From positions 1 to 62,386 of the IMG/VR virus record IMGVR_UViG_3300030451_003961: a stretch of DNA of 62,386 nt. One strand, written 5' to 3'. Shown here in pieces: positions 2,061 through 47,184 of this stretch. The position numbers and the translations under genes are program-made. Origin of the DNA: a virus. Lineage: Duplodnaviria > Caudoviricetes. Below the pieces are notes generated by a model. The model was given only the letters and a program-made list of their open reading frames with translations. It was not told the origin of the DNA and did no database searches. The stretch's first letter is position 1, and each line of letters starts with the position of its first letter.

Positions 2061-4012
2061 TAGCCCATGTCGTTAGGATCAACCATTATATCTTCAGTAA
2101 CATTTCTGTTATCATTTATAAACTTAAGAACTTCATCTTGTATAGTTACATTGTCTCCTAACACATTTATTTCAAATACTTTTTTATCTGGTGTAGTTAC
2201 TTTTAAAATGTATTGTGGATCTGTAGTTGTGGCTTTAAGTTTTTGTCTTTGTCTTCCTCTACTTTCAAATTGATTCTCAAAAGCATCATCCTCTACAAGT
2301 TCAAAATTAAACCCTTCGGCAGTTGGTACAATACTGTTGAAAGCAAAAAGATAATCCTTACCTATCTGTTGTATTTTTCCTCTATCTTGTAGGAAAGTTG
2401 CATCAGGATCACCTGGGGATTTGTACTCTGCTATACTTGCATCGTAATCAGGTATAGATAATATCCAGGATGCAAGACTTTGTTGTTTACCATCTGGATT
2501 ATTTACCTGTGCTGTTTGTGGATCTATCGACTCTTTGAATGCATCTATAGAGAAGTTGATATCATCTTGACTTTGTTGGAATTCAATCTCTGCCAGTCTT
2601 TTCACTTCTTCTTCGTTTAAATTAGGTTGTTTTGTTCTAATTTCTTCTTTAATCTCATCCAAGGTTCTAGGTGCTGCCACCTGTGCAAGCGTATTACCTT
2701 CAGCCCTGTATTCGTTTATCAATTGTTTGAAGTCTGGTATCGTAGATAAACCTAGTCTTTCTGCAACCGATAAATAATCTTGTTCTGTATTACCTGTGGT
2801 TTGAAAATCTCTAAACCCTTCTCCTGTAATAAATAATTTGCCATCTCTTCTTGTAATGTTTGTAATCCTTTTATTACTAGGTAAATTTTTATTGAAAGAA
2901 TCTAAAGTTTCTTGAGCTACTTGACCTGCTGCACTACCCTTGAGAGAGAAAATGTCTGTAATCAAGTCAATTTTACTGAATCTTTGAACTTTATTGTCTT
3001 GGAGAAGTTTGTTTTGTGTATTGATTTTTACCTCTCTGTCAATCTTAGCCATTAGATTATCTTCAACTATAGTTTTGACTGCTTGTCTTTGAGTATCAGT
3101 AAGATCTGGTTGCCAACTATTGTTGCTGTCTCTTGAAGCTAGAATATGGAATGGATTACTGCTATCGTATGCAATAACTTTTCCATCTGCATCTTTATTA
3201 GTTTGATCTTTATCACCTAAAAATACTTTATACTTAGTGTCGTATCCTGTTAAAACAGAACTTGCATTTCGTGCATCACCCAATATAGATTCTTGATATT
3301 GTGTTAAAGCGTCCTTAAATTTCGGATTATTAGTAATACTTTTGATAGTTTTTCCTCCATCTTTTGTAACAAAATCTACAATACCTAGAGTTTCTACTAA
3401 TTCTGATACATTACTATCAAGATCATATTGTTTTGCCAAATCAATCGCTTGATTACCCATGTTTTGAACAGGCATAATCTCACCTGTTTTTGTATTTCTT
3501 ATAACCAAAGCTCCTGTTGTAGGATCCACATTGATCACATTGTTTTTCATGTCGGTAAAACTCTTGAATGCATCAAAAGATTTTTCACCTAAAGCTGAAA
3601 GTTTGTCTTGATCTAATTCACTCTTTGCATTGGCATATAATTGATTGAATTGAGTGAACGAATTTTTTAATTGTGTCCAATCATCTCCAAGTTTTTGTCT
3701 AAACCTAGCGTAATCGTTTTGAGTGATCTCTCCATTTTTAAATAATCTATTTATGGTAAGTAAGGAGTTTGATGCTTGACCTGCACCTGCCATTATAAAG
3801 TCATTACCAGATTGGCTCTGACCAAGCTCGACATCTTGTATTGCTTTGTTAAGTTCGTTGGTTTGATTCTCTATTTCTTGTCTTTCTCCTATCCTTCTTT
3901 TTCTAACATCTCGAATCTCTTTTGTTATACCACTTGCAATCGTGCCCCAATCTACTAGATTTGAGCTATCTCTTTTTGCATACCCTAATTGATCTGGAAT
4001 ATTAACTGCCAT
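2060..4012 (-). CDS. Putative internal virion/ejection protein (650 aa)
   Basis: Long helical-looking ORF; middle of three genes after the nozzle, as in the podovirus ejection-protein trio (synteny inference). Confidence 0.6.
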   Translation of the reverse strand: MAVNIPDQLGYAKRDSSNLVDWGTIASGITKEIRDVRKRRIGERQEIENQTNELNKAIQDVELGQSQSGNDFIMAGAGQASNSLLTINRLFKNGEITQNDYARFRQKLGDDWTQLKNSFTQFNQLYANAKSELDQDKLSALGEKSFDAFKSFTDMKNNVINVDPTTGALVIRNTKTGEIMPVQNMGNQAIDLAKQYDLDSNVSELVETLGIVDFVTKDGGKTIKSITNNPKFKDALTQYQESILGDARNASSVLTGYDTKYKVFLGDKDQTNKDADGKVIAYDSSNPFHILASRDSNNSWQPDLTDTQRQAVKTIVEDNLMAKIDREVKINTQNKLLQDNKVQRFSKIDLITDIFSLKGSAAGQVAQETLDSFNKNLPSNKRITNITRRDGKLFITGEGFRDFQTTGNTEQDYLSVAERLGLSTIPDFKQLINEYRAEGNTLAQVAAPRTLDEIKEEIRTKQPNLNEEEVKRLAEIEFQQSQDDINFSIDAFKESIDPQTAQVNNPDGKQQSLASWILSIPDYDASIAEYKSPGDPDATFLQDRGKIQQIGKDYLFAFNSIVPTAEGFNFELVEDDAFENQFESRGRQRQKLKATTTDPQYILKVTTPDKKVFEINVLGDNVTIQDEVLKFINDNRNVTEDIMVDPNDMG

Positions 4013-40338: not shown

Positions 40339-40356
40339 ATTAAATTAAATTATAGT

Positions 40357-40364
40357 CAAATATA
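40357..40364 (-). promoter_or_regulatory. -7 promoter box TATATTTG for groEL
   Basis: TAnnTTTG match 18 nt before the ATG at 40338. Confidence 0.6.
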
Positions 40365-40395
40365 TAAAAAAAATGTTACAATATCTAGTGACGAT

Positions 40396-40610
40396 ATGTC
40401 GGAATTTGCAGGCAATAATACAATATATGTATAATTCTATCTATATATAAAAATATTTCTCTAGAATGGGGGAACATTTCGACATTTCGACATAGAAAAA
40501 ACTAAAAAAGTAGTAAAATACTGTAAAATAAGCAGTTACAAAGCAGATTTAAAGTGTCACTTTAGGTTTTTTTTCGACATTGAGTCGACATTTTCTAAAA
40601 AATTCGACAC
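40396..40610. repeat. Cluster of TCGACA(T/C) repeats, iteron-like
   Basis: Direct copies at about 40477, 40485, 40572, 40584 and 40603; one inverted variant (ATGTCGGA) at 40396; AT-rich spacers; non-coding. Confidence 0.7.
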
Positions 40611-40641
40611 AAAAAAGGGGAAAACTCGAAGCCTTCCCCTT
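40611..40641 (-). terminator. Intrinsic terminator
   Basis: Minus strand reads AAGGGGAA-GGCTTCGAGTT-TTCCCCTT then a T run, downstream of the ORF ending at 40686. Confidence 0.75.
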
Positions 40642-40685
40642 ACAACAGAAGAGAGAAATAGTTGTCTATGAAGACAAATATGCTT

Positions 40686-40859
40686 TTATTTTTTAAATAG
40701 GTTTATATTAGCGTTTGCTAATTCATTAGCCTCTGCAATCACCTGAACTTTGTCAAATCTTTTGATTGACTTCTTCATCATGCAGAGTTTTGTAATGCCC
40801 ATTACTGGATCTGGTCTATTATTGATCAGTCTTCCATTTTTAATTTCTAATCCATCCAT
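40686..40859 (-). CDS. Hypothetical protein (57 aa, MDGLEIKNGRLIN...)
   Basis: Start moved to the ATG at 40859 because a TATCTTTG box lies at 40879-40886; has its own terminator. Confidence 0.6.
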   Translation of the reverse strand: MDGLEIKNGRLINNRPDPVMGITKLCMMKKSIKRFDKVQVIAEANELANANINLFKK

Positions 40860-41027
40860 GATCTTAGTTTTAATCCTACAAAGATACAAAATAATCAGTT
40901 ACCTATATTGTTTAGGTTATATATATACACACGCACGCATGGCTCTGTTGGAAATCGATTTTTTTTTCTGTGGGGGGGTTGTTTTTTTCGCTGATTTTTT
41001 GCAAAATTTTGGCGATTTTTCGCACCC

Positions 41028-41059
41028 CTCGGACACAGGACGAAGTCCTGTGATCCGAG
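41028..41059. other. GC-rich inverted repeat with C-GAA-G triloop
   Basis: CTCGGA-CACAGGAC-GAA-GTCCTGTG-A-TCCGAG: 14 bp with one bulge, in the divergent non-coding region. Confidence 0.75.
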
Positions 41060-41273
41060 AACTTCGATTTACCTCTGTTGGCGATTTTGAAAGTCCTTCC
41101 CTCGTTCCCTTCGGTACACCTCAAGAGCATTTACATAACACCCCCAAACTTGAAAATTTGACTAAACAAAACGAGGGGATAAAATAAATTTTTTTTGAAT
41201 TTTTTTTTGTGTGATTTTCTTGAGTAAAAATTAAGAGCTCTGCAAGTTTTTTTTAATGCACTTTAAAAATTTT

Positions 41274-41304
41274 TTTGCAAAGTTTGTTTTTTTTTGTACC
41301 TTGT
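41274..41304 (+). promoter_or_regulatory. Candidate first early promoter TTTG-N19-TACCTTGT
   Basis: Near-consensus Bacteroidota -33/-7 pair, 45 nt before the ATG at 41350. Confidence 0.45.
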
Positions 41305-41349
41305 GAAAAATTTTCAGGGTTGTTCCCTGTTAATTATGCTCATTTACAT

Positions 41350-41784
41350 ATGAAGTCAATAACACACACTTCGAACAAGTCCAGTGCTAAACCTGTGAAT
41401 AATAGTAACAGAGTTGGCAAAGGCATAACCAAGTTATTAAACAGAAAAAAGTTATTAACTAAGAAAAAAGATAGAACACAAATGGATTCTATTTATCTGT
41501 TTAATGTTGCTTTTAAACTTGAAAATAAATCTCTTTCAAAAGTTTACAAAGATTTGAAAAATGCAACAGGCGAATTTTTGAAATATAGAGATGAAATACT
41601 TGGAAAATCAAAGTTCCCAAGTTTCAATGATTTTAAAGCAAAAGCGAGTAAAAAAAGAGGTCAATATCAACACTCAATTTATTCGGGGTTAATGATGCTA
41701 AAGCAATTCAATAAAATTGAAAAAACTTTGGCAAGAGTAAAGAGGCAAAATGCCAACGCAAAAAGAGTTAAATCGGTTGCGTAA
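41350..41784 (+). CDS. Very basic early protein (144 aa from MKSIT)
   Basis: K/R-rich ORF; first plus-strand gene; directly precedes the structured tract. Confidence 0.65.
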   Translation: MKSITHTSNKSSAKPVNNSNRVGKGITKLLNRKKLLTKKKDRTQMDSIYLFNVAFKLENKSLSKVYKDLKNATGEFLKYRDEILGKSKFPSFNDFKAKASKKRGQYQHSIYSGLMMLKQFNKIEKTLARVKRQNANAKRVKSVA

Positions 41785-41792
41785 TTACTCAA

Positions 41793-41836
41793 ATGAATGT
41801 TTGGAATTTAGGGGGGTTCGAGTCCCCCCCATTCAT
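41793..41836 (+). ncRNA. tRNA-like mini-element (acceptor stem plus T-arm, no anticodon arm)
   Basis: ATGAATG/CATTCAT 7-bp stem stacked on GGGGGG-TTCGAGT-CCCCCC; 11-nt linker containing GG. Confidence 0.6.
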
Positions 41837-41840
41837 CTAA

Positions 41841-42589
41841 CTTCTGCAAATTTCAGGGAATGCAGTTTGAATATGATTTGAAACCTGATAAGCAGTACTG
41901 ACAGATGCGAAATGCACACAGGCGAAATGCCTATATCTGTACAGGAAGCCAAACAGAAGGGATTTTTAGGATTTTCGGGGCACGAGCCCTTGAGGATACA
42001 GAGAGCAATCTGTATAAGTCGGTAGTGATGTACGAAGATACATTAGTAAAACAACGCATCAGATAACCCAAAGTATGTCTATCCTATGTCTGAACAAGAC
42101 CGACAGCCGAGTGCTGAACAGGTAAGGTCTGCCCCTTCTCTATCGGGGGTAATAGGTAGAGGAACTATCGAGCCAAAAGCGAGATAAGACAGGTAGCGAA
42201 CTTATGTAAAATCTTGACGCACTTTGTAAAGTTGAATCATCAAACATACATATCGGTATGTACAAAGGGTAAACAGAGTACGGGCGACTTGTTCCCCTTT
42301 GTGTTTAAAAACTTGTGACATCAGGCAACCAACCTGATGAATATTGAGATTTCCCATCACCATGATGGGTTGTAAGGATAAGAAACTCGGTGGATTAGAG
42401 ATTTGTTTAGTTAGAGGTAAACTCGTAGACAATCGATCGAAACAGGTCGAGGCAAAACCAATTCACAAAATCAGTAATAATGTCGGGTTTGAAGTACACC
42501 TTAAGTGAGAGTCATGTGATACAGATGATGTAGCGATTTCGGAATGAAATGAGACTCAAAGGCATTACGGAAAAAACTTCAACACTACA
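41841..42589 (+). ncRNA. Candidate large structured non-coding RNA (about 750 nt)
   Basis: No credible ORF; higher GC than flanks; more than 10 helices visible by eye, including nested long-range ones and a loop-E motif (see findings). Confidence 0.7.
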
Positions 42590-42625
42590 GGTGGTGAGAG
42601 GGTTCGATTCCCTCCTCCACCCCTA
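42590..42625 (+). ncRNA. Second tRNA-like T-arm element
   Basis: GAGGG-TTCGATT-CCCTC with GGTGG/CCACC extension; followed by CTAACT like the first element. Confidence 0.55.
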
Positions 42626-42643
42626 ACTATAAATTAGTTAAAT

Positions 42644-45600
42644 ATGCGAAAGCGAATACTTAAAAAAGTCAATCTAACAAGGGAGGTTGAGAAAATTGAC
42701 AACAACCACACACGAAAAAGAGTAGTGTATGGAAAACTTGTTCATCACATGATGAAGGAGTATGGACTTGATTGGGAGTCAGCAAAGAAAAAGTTGAAAG
42801 CCCAACAAGTAGAAACATCAATCAAAAGAGAGTTTAATTTAATAAATCAATAAAAATGGAAAAAGTTATTATCGCTGAATGGTGCGAAATCAAACAAGAC
42901 TTCGTACACCCAATAACAAGAGAAATAATAGAATAGTTATGAGAAAAATAGTTACTGAAATTACAGAACTTGAAAACGCACATCAATGGATCAGGCAATA
43001 TAGCCCAGACCATCACCTTTTCAAGTCAGCAAACAAGATACTGAACAAGACTTTTAGAAAGTATAAGACAGTAGATGTAAGTTTAATTAGAGAATTGATA
43101 AGATGACTAGATACGAAAGTAATCAAATCAAACAAATGCTAAGAAGCCATGACAAAATGGTTGCTTGGCAATGCAATTTCAATGCTTGTATTCACTTACT
43201 TGAACGCAAGATTGATGACTTAGAGTTCAAGCCAGATGGAAAAATTTATGGGTTGAAGGATATCTATAAGTATGTTGATAAATTACGAGAATGGAATGAG
43301 AAGTTGAACAATGAAAGAAATCACATTTGGGAGAAAATAGCATTATTAGATAATCCTGATGCAACATTTTTGTTTGAACCAACAACCTCCACTTTTGAAT
43401 GGAGTGATATGCCTTATAAGAATTGGCACAAACATAAAAAACCTAAGGTATGAATGAATTAGAGAAAGAAAACCTCGCACTCAAAGGCGAGTTAGATAAA
43501 CTCAAAACCTTCCAATACTACTTTGAATACATGAAAAAGGAAAACTCAAAGCATAAGAATTGGGTAGCAGAGAAAGAGTTGGAGTTTATTAGTATGTCAA
43601 TACAACGAAAGAAGGCAGAGATACGAGCCTTAGAGAGAGTTAAAGAATTAATATTAAATAATTAGATATGGGATTTTTTAGTTTTAAAACCACAGACACA
43701 GGTGAAAGTATACCGAACAAATATTCAGAGGAACTACCAATCCGAGTTGTCATGATAGATAACAAAGGAAACCATTGGGTTAGTGATGAAGACTATGAGG
43801 GATATGGGATATTCGGAGGTAAGGATATCTTTGAACTTATAGCCGAGATGAATGGAAAGACAACAAGAGATGAGGGAATAGATTTGTTCTATTCAAAAGA
43901 AAAGATACTCACACCCAACTTGTTGAGATATCCTCAATGGCACACCACCAAACGAAAATTTAAAAGTTGGAAAGATACAGAATGGGTAGATATAAGTTTA
44001 GTGGAATGTGAGTATCAAGGATATTTTTATGATGAAAGGCCTTATCGAGATGAGTATTATAATCAAGATTAATATATAAATTATGAGTAGAAGTTATCCA
44101 ATTTGGAACACGATAAACAGTTGTGCTTATCGTAATTCCAACAAATCGTATGGTGTGAAAGAACACAGCGAGATCACCATGCATGTTGGTTCAAGTAGCA
44201 CCAACAGTAAGATTATGGCAACCATCAAACAAACAAAAAGAGACTTCGGCATTTGGAGAAGTTTCCGATTGTCTGTGAATGGTAAAGTCATAGAACAACT
44301 CTGGTACAATACCAGAAGTAAGAAGTATCAAAAACAAACCCCTAAAACTTTAGTTATATGAAACAAAACAAAAAATACATAGTATGGGTTGGTGGAACTC
44401 CAAATTATTTTGACACTTTAGATGATGCAGAATTTGAAAAATTCCTGTGGATTCGCAAAGGTTATGATGATATATCCATTGAAATAATAAATAAATAATA
44501 TGAAACAACAAATTAAATGGTGCGTCTATGATGATGACATGAATAGGGATAATTACATTAAAATAAAAATCTATTATACAACCTGTGAAGAGACAGGGGA
44601 TATAATAATAGACACCGATATGATGATAGATGAGTGGAATGAGGAAATGAATAATCTAATAAATTCAAATTATGGATCTAAGTAATCAATTAATTAAAAA
44701 CATGACATGTTCATTGTATCAAGAGAGAGATGACCATGAGGAAGCGTTAGTAAAAATAGAGGAGTTCAGAATTCAAATGGTTTCTGTTCTGGACTTTTTA
44801 GATAAACAAGAAACCTTTTATTTAAACAGAAGAGATGAATAAATTCAAATCAATTATTAGTAAAGTGATAACACTATATGTGCTATCGCTTGGAGTTTTA
44901 GTATTAGTATGCGTATGTGCTATCATATTTAAATACCTAATCATGTCATGAGAGGGTGTGATGTATGGACAAAAATACAATTAGTCGAGAAACCTTTTTT
45001 GGGTAGTTGGTATGTCGGCTATGTCTATGTTCCACAGAGACACCCAATGTATGATGAAGCAGATGGAAATGTAAGTAATGATAGTCGCTTTATAGGTTTT
45101 GGAGAGTACGAACTTAGTTGGAGTGAAAAGATGGTTGATGATAGTGGCAAAAAATGGTTGAAACTAGGATTTAGTTTAATGGACGAATCAAAAGATGCAC
45201 TAAAAACTTCATATGAATTTGCCGAAATGATTGCAGAGTATGGCAAAGCACAAGTTGAACTGTATGAAGCAGAGTTCTTGCTTCAAGAAAGCACAGTCAG
45301 ATTGTTGGCAATGGAAGAGGATTTCAAGCAATCCACAGAGTCAGACAAAAGATTAGAAATAATCTGGAACGAATGGCTTAGTGATGAGGACAGAGAGAAA
45401 CTTAGAAAACAATTTAAAGATGAATAAACATGTATTAACAGCTATGTGTTGTGGGCACTCCATTCACCCACCCATAGTATTTGAGAGAATGGAAGAGGAG
45501 GGCTTTGATTGGTCAACAAAGACTCCTTCAGAATGTAATGACTATATAATAAATAATTTTTAACATGAGTAAACACAATTTCAACGACTTCGATTTGGAG

Positions 45601-46639
45601 TCAACAATTCACATTTTAGAGGAACTCACATATTATCTTTCGGAAGAGGAAGATGATGCGTGGGCTTGTTTCTGGACAGATTATGAGATGACTGCATCAG
45701 GAATGGTAGACAAAAACTCAGACTACCAAGAGGACTTCGACAACTGGCTCGAACAATCCAGTCACATATACAAATATGTTGCGGCGTCTTTTAGATTAAT
45801 AACTAAATACAGAGAAGGCAATGGGAAAACCAAGTAAATTAACAAGGGAGTTGTATGAACTAGCAAAGTTACCTCCTCCTATACCACGAGAAGTGATAAA
45901 TAAAAAATGGACATTAGATGTCCTGAACCATGCTTTTAATTGGATAGCAGAACAAGAGCAAAGCGATCTGGAGGGATTCAGACAGTCATGCAGTTTGCTA
46001 GATGATTTAGAGTATATAATAGAAACCTTAGAAAATAATAACAATAAAATTTTATAATTATGGGAAAACATGCACCTGAATACCTTGAAGACAAGGTACT
46101 CACACTAATTAAACTAATGGAAGCAAATGTTTCAAACAGCTGGACATTTGATTTAGAAATGACTCATGAATGTATCATTGTAGAGGATGGAGTAAACAGA
46201 CATGAGGATGATCAGTATACAGAAGTCTATACAGGGGCTAGGATTTGGGAGTTAGTTGAAGAGATTAAAAAAGAAATATATGGAAAATGATTATTCAAAA
46301 TACATAGGCATGTATATGTCTACCTATAGTTTTGTAGGGCAGAACAAACTAGAGGATGTCGCAAACGAAGTCTTGGGATTAGGATGGGAGGCAGAGGATG
46401 ATGTAGTACAGATAGAGGCTATACTAGAGGCTCTATGTCCTAACATGTTTGTGGTAGAATTCATTGCTAACAGCAAGTTTGAGGATGATATTCGTGTTAG
46501 GATAAGGGATGAATATCAAGTCAGACATGAATTGAAAGAATTGGTAGACTTATTTAATTGGAGAAAGACTTCTACCAATGACAGTATACTGATGGTAGGA
46601 GATTTAAAAAAGTTGACTGAATTAGTAGATAAATTATAA
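42644..46639 (+). other. Run of small early hypothetical ORFs (e.g. 42644-42853, 43103-43453, 43450-43665, 44083-44361, 44500-44685, 44948-45427, 45565-45837, 45821-46057, 46060-46290)
   Basis: Co-oriented and often overlapping 40-160 aa ORFs with AT-rich leaders; layout typical of a host-takeover region; no functions recognised. Confidence 0.65.
43668..44072 (+). CDS. Phage hypothetical protein (MGFFSF...YEGYGIFGGKD)
   Basis: Clean ORF with a motif I recall from phage early proteins; function unknown. Confidence 0.65.
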   Translation: MGFFSFKTTDTGESIPNKYSEELPIRVVMIDNKGNHWVSDEDYEGYGIFGGKDIFELIAEMNGKTTRDEGIDLFYSKEKILTPNLLRYPQWHTTKRKFKSWKDTEWVDISLVECEYQGYFYDERPYRDEYYNQD

Positions 46640-46669
46640 GGGGTAGCCGAAAACCTTACAGAGTAGGCA
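46640..46669 (+). promoter_or_regulatory. Repeated structured leader motif, copy 1
   Basis: GGGGTAGCCGAAAACCTTACAGAGTAGGCA, 23 nt before the ATG at 46693; near-identical to 48801-48830. Confidence 0.65.
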
Positions 46670-46692
46670 AAATTTAATTTAATATTTTAATT

Positions 46693-47184
46693 ATGGGACA
46701 ATACTATATTGTTGTAAACAAAACCAAGAAGCAATTCTTGAACCCCCATACATTTGGGGAAGGTGCAAAGTTGTGCGAGTTTTCATTTGGAAGTGGCACA
46801 ATACTCACAGGACTATCATTTCTACTTGCCAATGGCAATGGTCGAGGTGGTGGAGATCTACACTCTAACAATGATCTGATTGGTAGTTGGAGTGGAGATA
46901 AAATATCGGTCGAGGGGGACTATGCTGATGAGGACTATGAGCATGAGGGTAAGCCATGTAACCTATACATGTTAGCCTATGAGACATATGAGGACATCAG
47001 CAAAGCAACCTACAGGGTTCTCTTTGAAGATGAGTGGTACAGGCAGAGAAGGAGAGAGGAAATCTTAAAAATCAATAGAGATATGTGGTTGCCAGGTGAA
47101 CATGAAGTTCTGCATGATGAGTTTCCTGATCTTGTGTCTAAACCGATCAAGTTGGATTCTAAAGGCCATGTAACAGATGCCTAA
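46693..47184 (+). CDS. Phage hypothetical protein (MGQYY.VVN.TKKQFL.P)
   Basis: Clean ORF; GSWSGD.I...GDY motif. Confidence 0.7.
   Translation: MGQYYIVVNKTKKQFLNPHTFGEGAKLCEFSFGSGTILTGLSFLLANGNGRGGGDLHSNNDLIGSWSGDKISVEGDYADEDYEHEGKPCNLYMLAYETYEDISKATYRVLFEDEWYRQRRREEILKINRDMWLPGEHEVLHDEFPDLVSKPIKLDSKGHVTDA

What the first reader, a model, noticed from the sequence alone, without database searches (positions are those of the whole stretch)
41793..42625. Candidate giant structured phage ncRNA at the very start of the early region
Seen: about 830 nt with no credible ORF in an otherwise packed genome, GC-richer than its flanks, and full of helices. Examples: CTTCTG 41841-46/CAGAAG 41954-59 enclosing TCAGG/CCTGA and a GC-AGTA-CTG...CAG-GAA-GC loop-E motif (41892-41949) capped by two GAAAT-loop hairpins; ATACAGA/TCTGTAT 41996-42015; GTCGGT 42018-23/ACCGAC 42099-104; ACAAAGGG 42262-69/CCCTTTGT 42295-302; CATCAGG/CCTGATG 42319-39; CCCATCA/TGATGGG 42353-69; TTGAAGT 42489-95/ACTTCAA 42576-82 enclosing GAGTC/GACTC. 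Known: GOLLD and ROOL are large ornate RNAs of similar size found in phages near tRNAs, with unknown function. Inference: this is either a divergent member of such a class or a new class, expressed immediately after infection.
Basis: partly seen in the sequence, partly recalled or inferred. Interest (0 to 1): 0.9.

Follow-up and report, generated by a model that had tools for sequence, protein, structure and literature searches.

The report
New large phage RNA, tRNA-like ends
This gene-free stretch of a marine phage genome encodes a large folded RNA of a family that matches no catalogued RNA family, bracketed by two miniature tRNA look-alikes that probably let the host's tRNA-trimming enzymes cut it out.

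Summary
Window 41785-42643 has no credible ORF, is GC-richer than its flanks, and the listed helices sit where stated. It belongs to a conserved RNA family. I found 15 distinct homologues of its 5' domain in marine phage contigs, always directly downstream of the same small basic ORF (19 of 19 loci found through that protein). The 5' domain (window 41841-41959) consists of a closing stem, a hairpin, a loop-E-like AGUA/GAA motif and two hairpins with GNRA-like pentaloops. It covaries strongly: 21 of 30 pairs change on both sides, 98% of cells pair, and 0 of 500 shuffles reach this. The RNA ends are tRNA-like minihelices or 11-bp hairpins with covarying stems, each followed by N-CTAA. No Rfam family matches (GOLLD, ROOL, tmRNA and the rest), and ARAGORN finds nothing. 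The middle is mosaic between relatives, and the window's last 200 nt have no homologue and no support. Folding energy alone is weak evidence. Contigs from RNA libraries cover part of the region. My best reading is a new class of large early phage ncRNA, excised at the tRNA-like brackets and probably partnered with the basic protein. Its function is unknown.

The parts
41350..41784 (+). Small K/R-rich ORF (144 aa) directly upstream; candidate protein partner
   Evidence: Homologues (42-58% identity) precede every family member found: 12 of 12 metagenome loci and 7 of 7 viral loci. At least 124 clusters at E<=0.001, none annotated beyond 'hypothetical' or stray names. No Pfam or PHROG family. 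AF2 model is all-helical with pLDDT 63, and no Foldseek match reaches E<=0.001.
41793..41836 (+). tRNA-like minihelix 1: 7-bp acceptor-like stem ATGAATG/CATTCAT, 11-nt linker containing GG, 6-bp G/C stem with T-loop TTCGAGT; no anticodon arm
   Evidence: Sequence. The MFE fold of the isolated element is exactly this (z -1.95). L031 and L039 carry the same element with TGATAA/TTATCA in place of TGAATG/CATTCA, i.e. 3 of 6 pairs changed on both sides. ARAGORN calls no tRNA or tmRNA.
41837..41842 (+). Trailer CTAACT after minihelix 1 (N-CTAA motif); predicted 5' boundary of the mature RNA
   Evidence: The same N-(T)CTAA follows the end hairpins or minihelices in the window (both ends), L031, L039, L082, L076, L226, L230 and the hairpin-type members. 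L111 has TCTAT and L231's 5' element CTACTTAC instead.
41841..41959 (+). Conserved 5' domain. P1 41841-46/41954-59; P2 hairpin (TCAGG 41853-57 / CCTGA 41884-88 in the window); P3a GC 41892-93 / GC 41948-49; loop-E-like AGTA 41894-97 opposite GAA 41945-47; P3b 41898-906 / 41935-44; P4 hairpin 41907-15 and P5 hairpin 41920-32, both with GAAAT loops; invariant GCCAAA 41948-53 (GAAGCCAAA in 14 of 15 distinct sequences; L231 has CAAGCCAAA)
   Evidence: Covariance model R1 hits 41834-41968 at 70.2 bits. MAFFT alignment A6: 96.4% of cells paired, 11 of 30 pairs changed on both sides, 0 of 500 shuffles reach this, slid controls give <=5. Model-fitted alignment A11 (15 distinct sequences): 98.0% paired, 21 of 30, 0 of 500, slid <=10. 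The single-sequence MFE recovers the same architecture. G-U pairs at three positions fix the strand as +.
41960..42385 (+). Mosaic middle region: modules shared patchily with relatives, including hairpin ATGTA/TACAT (about 42028-42047) and hairpin CCCATCA/TGATGGG 42353-69
   Evidence: 42015-42077 is 87.5% identical to L108, with ATGTA/TACAT changed to ATGCA/TGCAT. 42144-42232 is 72-80% identical to L107, L103, L082 and L111. 42363-42385 is shared with the L082 type. Variant contigs in three RNA libraries change hairpin 42353-69 to CCCAG/CTGGG by a coupled insertion and A42365C. No Rfam match at E<=10.
42386..42589 (+). Window-specific 3' extension; structure unverified
   Evidence: No homologue in any fetched locus. 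Fold of 42485-42586 gives z -0.48. RNA-library contigs reach only to 42485-42515.
42590..42621 (+). tRNA-like minihelix 2: GGTGGTG/CTCCACC (one T-T mismatch), 1-nt linker, T-arm GAGGG-TTCGATT-CCCTC
   Evidence: Sequence. Fold z -3.25, 1 of 200 shuffles. Weak match to the mascRNA model with the anticodon/D region deleted (20.5 bits, gathering 42.5). The same position in relatives holds a tRNA-like T-arm/acceptor (L082, L076, L111, L226) or an 11-bp hairpin whose stem covaries: 7 of 11 pairs changed on both sides, 98.7% paired.
42622..42628 (+). Trailer CCTAACT after minihelix 2
   Evidence: Sequence; same motif as at 41837-42.
42644..42853 (+). First downstream small ORF (69 aa), starting 22 nt after minihelix 2
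   Evidence: Homologues in L076 and L082 (36-41% identity) sit directly after their tRNA-like 3' elements.

Best explanation
Window 41793-42628 encodes a member of an RNA family with no Rfam match and no description in the papers I searched. The RNAs are large (about 530-860 nt) and modular, and occur in marine phages related to phages of Flavobacteriia.

Shown: (1) a conserved, covarying 5' domain built from a closing stem, a hairpin and a stem carrying a loop-E-like AGUA/GAA motif that branches into two hairpins with GNRA-like pentaloops; (2) structured end modules, either tRNA-like minihelices or 11-bp hairpins with a conserved loop, each followed by N-CTAA; (3) strict linkage to a small basic ORF immediately upstream.

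Inferred mechanism: the RNA is transcribed as part of the rightward (presumably early) polycistronic transcript. It is cut out by the host's tRNA-processing enzymes, RNase P at the 5' side of each minihelix and RNase Z after the discriminator. This would give a discrete RNA whose 5' end lies at about 41837/41838 and whose 3' end is either capped by minihelix 2 (possibly with CCA added) or lies just before it. The released RNA then acts in trans, most likely as a ribonucleoprotein with the co-inherited basic protein, with the invariant 5' domain as the docking surface. Its target is unknown.

Odds: real structured ncRNA family about 0.95; excision at the tRNA-like brackets about 0.5; protein partnership about 0.35.
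For: Non-coding: stops in all six frames in the window and in all 15 relatives' RNA regions examined. Every locus has a 600-860 nt ORF-free stretch.

Family: R1 hits of 47.7-139 bits in 16 loci (15 distinct sequences).

Covariation: 5' domain; 3' hairpin; RNAalifold on 11 relatives: 94 pairs, 38 changed on both sides and kept.

Loop-E-like AGTA/GAA is invariant in all 15 distinct sequences.

tRNA-like ends.

Related phages L031 and L039 have just one such minihelix plus CTAAC between two ORFs and no large RNA. L072, L078, L079, L063, L068 and L071 also carry minihelices in the same region. L023 has hammerhead-like motifs right after two ORF stops. Together these suggest that RNA punctuation of this operon is a general theme in the group.

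Linkage with the basic ORF: 19 of 19 loci. L076 has a protein with the same N-terminus but a different remainder, and an RNA with the same ends but no 5' domain.

Expression hint: contigs from RNA libraries X18, X19 and X20 (two studies) cover 42020-42515, and one covers the ORF.
Against: No transcript ends, strand or abundance are known. Contigs from RNA libraries can derive from DNA, and they stop at 42485-42515, before minihelix 2.

Folding energy is only modestly better than shuffles and equally so on the minus strand.

Most of the window's own middle and all of its last 200 nt lack comparative support.

Most family members have no canonical T-loop at the 5' end (a three-way junction or a TGCAAWT-loop hairpin instead) and a plain hairpin at the 3' end, so tRNA-enzyme processing cannot be the universal rule unless those elements are functional mimics.

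No RNA-binding fold could be assigned to the basic protein.
Confidence: 0.6

Rival explanations
1. A cis-acting structured leader or 3' UTR rather than a free RNA. The region stays attached to the mRNA and controls the early genes downstream (antitermination, translation or stability) or the basic ORF upstream. The end hairpins act as terminators or stabilisers.
For: It lies inside an operon with no obvious own promoter in the 8-90 nt between ORF stop and P1. The 3' element ends 15-25 nt before the next start codon in all members. In several members the 3' hairpins are followed by T-rich runs.
Against: Length (530-860 nt), a branched invariant core and GNRA-like loops are unusual for a leader. 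Relatives express homologous downstream ORFs with only a minihelix in place of the RNA. The downstream ORFs differ between members while the RNA 5' domain and the upstream ORF stay constant.
Confidence: 0.2
2. An RNA involved in phage DNA replication (a primer or R-loop-forming origin transcript, in the manner of ColE1 RNA II), lying next to the strand-switch region with its iteron-like repeats.
Against: Many related phages with the same genome layout lack it: 0 of 80 GroEL-anchored loci have an R1 hit. An accessory element is an unlikely origin. Nothing links the conserved 5' domain to DNA.
Confidence: 0.07
3. A mobile or recombining cassette inserted at a tRNA-like site. The two minihelix+CTAACT copies would be the duplicated target, L031 and L039 would show the empty site, and the content need not be functional.
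For: A single minihelix+CTAAC occurs at the equivalent place in L031 and L039. Both window junctions end in CTAACT. Module content is mosaic among relatives.
Against: The two minihelices differ in stem sequence and linker length, so they are not a duplication. The 5' domain is under clear purifying and compensatory selection. There is no integrase, transposase or reverse transcriptase next to it. The upstream ORF in L031 and L039 is unrelated, so these are not simple empty sites.
Confidence: 0.05
4. A highly divergent member of a known large RNA class (GOLLD or ROOL), or a degenerate tRNA array or tmRNA.
For: Size and phage context resemble GOLLD and ROOL, and T-arm motifs are present.
Against: No GOLLD, ROOL or other large-RNA family appears even at E<=10 on 41400-43000. 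There is no gathering-score match in the window or in 9 relatives' loci. ARAGORN finds 0 tRNA or tmRNA. tmRNA models match only the 17-nt T-arm at 14 bits.
Confidence: 0.03

Closest known systems
GOLLD and ROOL large ornate RNAs (phage- or prophage-associated, often beside tRNA genes; shown by cryo-EM to form RNA-only multimers - 10.1101/2024.12.08.627333, search listing and start of abstract seen only; other facts recalled)
   Same: Several hundred nucleotides long, non-coding, phage context, branched conserved core with covariation, association with tRNA-type elements, function unknown.
   Different: No match to their Rfam models. The tRNA-type elements here are anticodon-less minihelices fused to the RNA ends, not neighbouring tRNA genes. 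The body is mosaic, with only about 125 nt invariant. It is strictly linked to a small basic ORF. Multimerisation was not tested.
tRNA-like processing tags: MALAT1/mascRNA (recalled) and plant mitochondrial t-elements (PMC1920247, search listing and start of abstract seen)
   Same: A tRNA-like structure embedded in a longer transcript, proposed to recruit RNase P and RNase Z and so define the ends of the flanking RNA. The mascRNA model gives a weak partial match to minihelix 2.
   Different: Those are cloverleaf-like, eukaryotic or organellar. Here there are acceptor/T-arm minihelices in a phage, on both sides of the RNA, each followed by a conserved CTAA. Cleavage was not tested.
tmRNA tRNA-like domain and bacterial Y RNA (YrlA) tRNA mimic (recalled)
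   Same: Acceptor stem stacked on a T-arm with a GG-containing linker standing in for the D-loop and no anticodon arm (minihelix 1).
   Different: Each minihelix here is a local hairpin-type fold, not formed by the 5' and 3' ends of the whole RNA. There is no tag reading frame, no ARAGORN call and no Rfam tmRNA or Y RNA match above noise.
Candidate structured RNAs predicted from IMG/VR (PMC10690425; abstract start and passages seen by 'find', supplementary tables closed)
   Same: Same data source, and a comparative approach that reports tRNA-like and intergenic structures in phages.
   Different: The passages I read mention no large RNA with these features. Whether part of this family is among the 8,495 unnamed candidates could not be checked.

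Membership tests
GOLLD RNA (Rfam) | Match to the family covariance model (sequence plus structure) | tested here: not met
   No hit at gathering score or at E<=10 with permissive filters on 41400-43000. None in 9 relatives' loci at gathering score.
ROOL RNA (Rfam) | Match to the family covariance model | tested here: not met
   Same searches.
GOLLD/ROOL kind | Self-assembly into RNA-only multimers | not testable with these tools
   Needs native gel, SEC-MALS or cryo-EM of the transcript.
tRNA | Cloverleaf with anticodon arm, detectable by ARAGORN | tested here: not met
   0 genes in the window. Linkers of 11 nt and 1 nt replace the D, anticodon and variable arms.
tRNA-like minihelix (acceptor/T-arm mimic) | 7-bp stem stacked on a 5-6-bp stem closed by a 7-nt T-loop (TTCRANY) | tested here: met
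   Both elements. Compensatory acceptor changes in L031 and L039 and in L082 versus L076.
tRNA-like minihelix (acceptor/T-arm mimic) | Cleavage by RNase P / RNase Z, CCA addition | not testable with these tools
   Biochemical assay needed.
tmRNA | tRNA-like domain formed by the two RNA ends, plus tag ORF and pseudoknots | tested here: not met
   ARAGORN 0. Rfam tmRNA 14.1 bits and permuted tmRNA 13.6 bits against gathering 47, covering the T-arm only.
Loop E / sarcin-ricin-type motif | AGUA opposite GAA, flanked by Watson-Crick pairs | tested here: met
   Invariant in 15 of 15 distinct sequences, flanked by covarying P3a and P3b. The three-dimensional fold is not testable here; the motif definition is recalled.
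Protein-coding gene or pseudogene | Conserved open frame or protein similarity | tested here: not met
   9-23 stops per frame in the window and 6-19 in the 15 relatives' RNA regions examined. tblastx of 40339-43500 against 80 related loci gives no credible hit inside 41838-42565.

The most novel reading that the evidence does not exclude
This is a previously unrecognised class of phage ribonucleoprotein RNA. The phage hijacks the host tRNA-maturation machinery (RNase P, RNase Z, perhaps the CCA-adding enzyme) through anticodon-less tRNA mimics to carve out and cap a 0.5-0.9 kb early RNA. Its invariant loop-E/GNRA core, together with a dedicated basic protein, takes over or blocks a host process (translation, RNA decay or an anti-phage defence). 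Interchangeable body modules would tune it to different hosts.
Probability: 0.3. Interest if true: 0.88.

Novelty: new variant of a known kind. Interest (0 to 1): 0.78.

Why it matters
Very few large (over 500 nt) structured bacterial or phage RNA classes are known, and none has an established function. This one has three features that make it unusually tractable:
- a compact invariant core with strong covariation;
- a co-inherited candidate protein partner;
- end modules that look like substrates of well-characterised enzymes, giving an immediate biochemical test.

It would also extend 'tRNA punctuation' of transcripts, known from organelles and the nucleus, to bacteriophages. It comes from abundant marine phages related to those of Flavobacteriia, where almost nothing is known about RNA-based regulation.

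Tried and rejected
Searches that gave nothing or only noise:
- blastn (distant mode) of 41700-42700 against the phage collection: no match.
- blastn and nhmmer of the 846 nt against 80 GroEL-anchored related loci: only a 33-nt match to the minihelix of L039.
- The search for related loci with the single basic ORF: no relative. It worked only with alignments.
- Exact-pattern scans from blocks shared by the window and L082: apart from L086 (same contig as L082), only chance hits. L085 and L087 were read and are unrelated higher-GC phages whose match lies at a ribosome-binding region.
- 5'-domain pattern in genome contigs: 94 stretches, none confirmed by model R1 (best 19 bits, E 0.74).
89 new loci were screened and gave 0 R1 hits.
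- R1 against 3 plus 151 genomes of the family of one Flavobacteriaceae genome: 0 hits. The tool warns that an empty answer shows nothing.
- The three-way MAFFT alignment of window, L082 and L076 was uninformative.
- The canonical 11-nt tetraloop-receptor halves are absent from all members.
- Basic protein: no Pfam or PHROG family, low-confidence AF2 model, no Foldseek PDB match at E<=0.001, no protein-atlas lead.
- MW202828.1, the closest GenBank phage by primase (63.6%), shows no long gap at the equivalent place. I did not run R1 on it.
- RNA-library contigs do not cover 41810-41990 or 42542-43000. I treat this as no evidence either way. One RNA contig ends within about 6 nt of the predicted RNase P site at 41792/41793, but contigs cannot show RNA ends.

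Readings rejected: tmRNA, tRNA array, decayed gene, GOLLD/ROOL membership (see membership tests).

Literature: searches found no description of this RNA. The supplementary tables of PMC10690425 are closed and may list part of it.
Full report
**What the window is.** The window is a complete 62,386-bp virus record. Its proteins resemble those of phages of Flavobacterium, Nonlabens, Cellulophaga, Polaribacter and Maribacter. The closest GenBank record by primase, at 63.6%, is an uncultured podovirus. Genes left of about 40,340 run leftward (GroEL, structural genes). From about 41,350 they run rightward, first small ORFs and then replication genes.

**Observation.** Between the stop of a 144-aa basic ORF (41784) and the next start codon (42644) there is no credible ORF. 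The longest are 53-54 aa on + and 76 aa on -, and every frame has 9-23 stops. GC is 0.38-0.46 against 0.27-0.32 in the flanks.

Energy alone is weak evidence. The whole region gives z -2.50 on the + strand and -2.65 on the - strand, with 0 of 20 shuffles each. The 5' domain alone gives z -1.36. The 3' extension 42485-42586 gives z -0.48.

**Known families.** Rfam 15 gives one gathering-score hit in the whole window, DUF805b at 46637-46669, outside the finding. At E<=10 on 41400-43000 there are 11 matches, all far below their gathering scores. None is to GOLLD, ROOL, OLE, HEARO, RNase P or introns. The tmRNA, permuted-tmRNA and mascRNA models touch only the two T-arm-like hairpins. ARAGORN finds no tRNA or tmRNA. 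Nine relatives' loci also give no gathering-score hit.

**The two brackets.** 41793-41836 folds as a 7-bp stem (ATGAATG/CATTCAT), an 11-nt linker containing GG, and a 6-bp G/C stem closed by TTCGAGT. 42590-42621 folds as GGTGGTG/CTCCACC, a 1-nt linker and GAGGG-TTCGATT-CCCTC. Both are followed by C(C)TAACT. These are acceptor/T-arm mimics without an anticodon arm.

**Finding relatives.** GroEL-anchored loci from viral contigs (209 relatives, best 80 kept, 58-64% identity) contain no sequence homologue of the 846 nt and no hit of the later model (0 of 80). They were still informative:
- L031 and L039 carry the minihelix-1 homologue with compensatory stem changes plus CTAAC, placed directly between an ORF stop and the next ORF, with no large RNA.
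- L072, L078, L079, L063, L068 and L071 carry similar minihelices in the same region.
- L023 has two hammerhead-type-I-like motifs (29.1 bits, gathering 34, E about 1e-4), each starting at an ORF stop codon.

A tblastx hit led to L076, and an alignment of the downstream ORF led to L082. Both have a 600-650-nt ORF-free stretch ending in a tRNA-like T-arm/acceptor. Between L076 and L082 the acceptor and T stems differ by compensatory changes (AGGCGTA/TACGCCT against AGGCATA/TATGCCT; GAGGG/CCCTC against GGGGG/CCCCC). L082 shares collinear blocks with the window RNA.

An alignment of the upstream basic ORF then retrieved 12 metagenome loci and 7 viral loci. All 19 have the RNA next to the ORF. This was shown by model hit, by identity to the window or L082, or by lying on L082's contig.

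**The conserved 5' domain.** The MAFFT alignment A6 (12 sequences) with a hand-drawn structure gives 96.4% of cells paired and 11 of 30 pairs changed on both sides. No shuffle reaches this (0 of 500), and slid controls give at most 5 such pairs.

Model R1 built from A6 finds 16 loci, 15 of them distinct sequences, at 47.7-139 bits (window 70.2). These include divergent members L226, L230 and L231. On the model-fitted alignment A11, which leans towards the structure, 98.0% of cells pair and 21 of 30 pairs change on both sides. All 6 pairs of P1 and all 9 of P3b are among them. Again 0 of 500 shuffles reach this, and slid controls give at most 10.

Invariant features are AGTA opposite GAA (loop-E-like) and GCCAAA (GAAGCCAAA in 14 of the 15 distinct sequences; L231 reads CAAGCCAAA). 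Pentaloops of the form G(A/C)AA(T/C) cap P4 and P5 in 13 of the 15; L230 and L231 have different loops. G-U pairs at three positions fix the strand as +. The window's own MFE fold reproduces this architecture.

**The ends in relatives.** At the 3' end, members have one of two elements. Some have a tRNA-like element (window, L082, L076, L111, L226). The others have an 11-bp hairpin with a conserved 12-nt loop, whose stem has 7 of 11 pairs changed on both sides and 98.7% of cells paired. Nearly all are followed by N-(T)CTAA and then 15-25 nt to the next start codon; L111 has TCTAT.

At the 5' end, members have a minihelix (window), a similar element with a TGCAAWT loop (L226, L230, L231), or a covarying three-way junction (L082 and L106 types).

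RNAalifold on 11 non-window full-length RNAs independently recovers the 5' junction, P1-P5, two further hairpins and the 3' hairpin. It predicts 94 pairs, 38 of which change on both sides and are kept.

**The body is mosaic.**
- The window shares 42015-42077 with L108 (87.5%, with ATGTA/TACAT changed to ATGCA/TGCAT).
- It shares 42144-42232 and 42363-42385 with the L082 type.
- It shares nothing in 42233-42362 or 42386-42589.
- L076 keeps the family's ends but has a different core with no R1 hit. Its upstream protein shares only the N-terminus with the family.

**Expression and natural variation.** Near-identical DNA occurs in marine metagenome runs. Contigs from three metatranscriptome libraries of two studies lie on 42020-42515, and one lies on the basic ORF. 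None lies on 42542-43000. These are contigs, so they show presence in RNA libraries and nothing about ends, strand or level.

Their variants change hairpin 42353-69 from CCCATCA/TGATGGG to CCCAG/CTGGG through a coupled insertion and substitution, which keeps the hairpin. One variant replaces 42095-42103 with 66 other letters.

**The basic protein.** It has no Pfam or PHROG family. At least 124 clusters match at E<=0.001, all unannotated or 'hypothetical' apart from two stray names. The AF2 model is all-helical with pLDDT 63.2 and has no Foldseek match at E<=0.001. The protein atlas gives no lead. A partnership with the RNA rests on co-occurrence only.

**Interpretation.** The locus encodes a structured non-coding RNA of a family not present in Rfam and not found in my literature searches. 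The supplement of PMC10690425 could not be opened.

The most economical mechanism is as follows. The RNA is part of the rightward polycistronic transcript and is released at its tRNA-like brackets by RNase P and RNase Z. This follows the logic of mascRNA (recalled) and plant mitochondrial t-elements (PMC1920247, abstract start seen). The intercistronic minihelices and hammerhead-like motifs of related phages point the same way. It would then act in trans through its invariant 5' domain, probably together with the basic protein. These steps are inferred and none is shown.

The rivals are a cis-acting leader, a replication RNA, a cassette relic and a divergent known class. They are weighed in the fields above.

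**Verdict.** The 'new class of large structured phage RNA' reading is supported for the core and the ends. The 'single giant fold' and 'immediate-early' parts remain open.

Noticed in passing
L023:4704-4753 and L023:5067-5116 (minus strand of the locus): Two identical hammerhead type-I-like motifs (29.1 bits, gathering 34, E about 1e-4). Each begins at the stop codon of a small ORF in the operon equivalent to the window's rightward one, which suggests self-cleaving intercistronic punctuation in a related phage.
   Followed up: partly
L031:5376-5417(-), L039:4832-4873(-), L072:4260-4300(-), L078:4052-4092(-), L079:2297-2338(-), L063:2265-2305(-), L068 near 2392-2408(-), L071:3866-3905(-): Anticodon-less tRNA-like minihelices (acceptor stem, about 10-nt linker often containing TGG, T-arm). 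Most are followed by ACTA(A/C); L079 has GCGAG and L071 AGCTAA. They sit between small ORFs in many related phages that lack the large RNA: a separate, wider family.
   Followed up: partly
L076:4544-5189 (minus strand): An RNA-sized ORF-free stretch with the same 5' junction and 3' tRNA-like end as L082 but an unrelated core. It contains two copies of AAAGTGGTTAATCCCT, and a third related copy lies upstream of the ORF. This may be a second RNA type at the same slot.
   Followed up: no
window 46637-46669: DUF805b RNA motif, the only gathering-score Rfam hit in the window (43.6 bits). The R1 model also gives a noise-level hit next to it (46684-46738, 19.9 bits).
   Followed up: no
window 40686-40889 (-): A 67-aa ORF conserved by tblastx in most of the 80 GroEL-anchored loci, next to GroEL. 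No Pfam family.
   Followed up: no
window 40930-41130; L076:5900-6060(-); L082:2030-2230: Odd low-complexity stretches between the conserved 67-aa ORF and the basic ORF: G/T-rich then C-rich in the window, and long CCACACC/CCCGTT-type runs in L076 and L082. Non-coding, meaning unknown.
   Followed up: no
Seen in the sequence but not analysed.
   Followed up: no
window 42094-42104: A variant contig in RNA library X20 replaces 9 nt with 66 other letters, next to the 3' strand of the GTCGGT/ACCGAC helix: natural module insertion within the RNA body.
   Followed up: no
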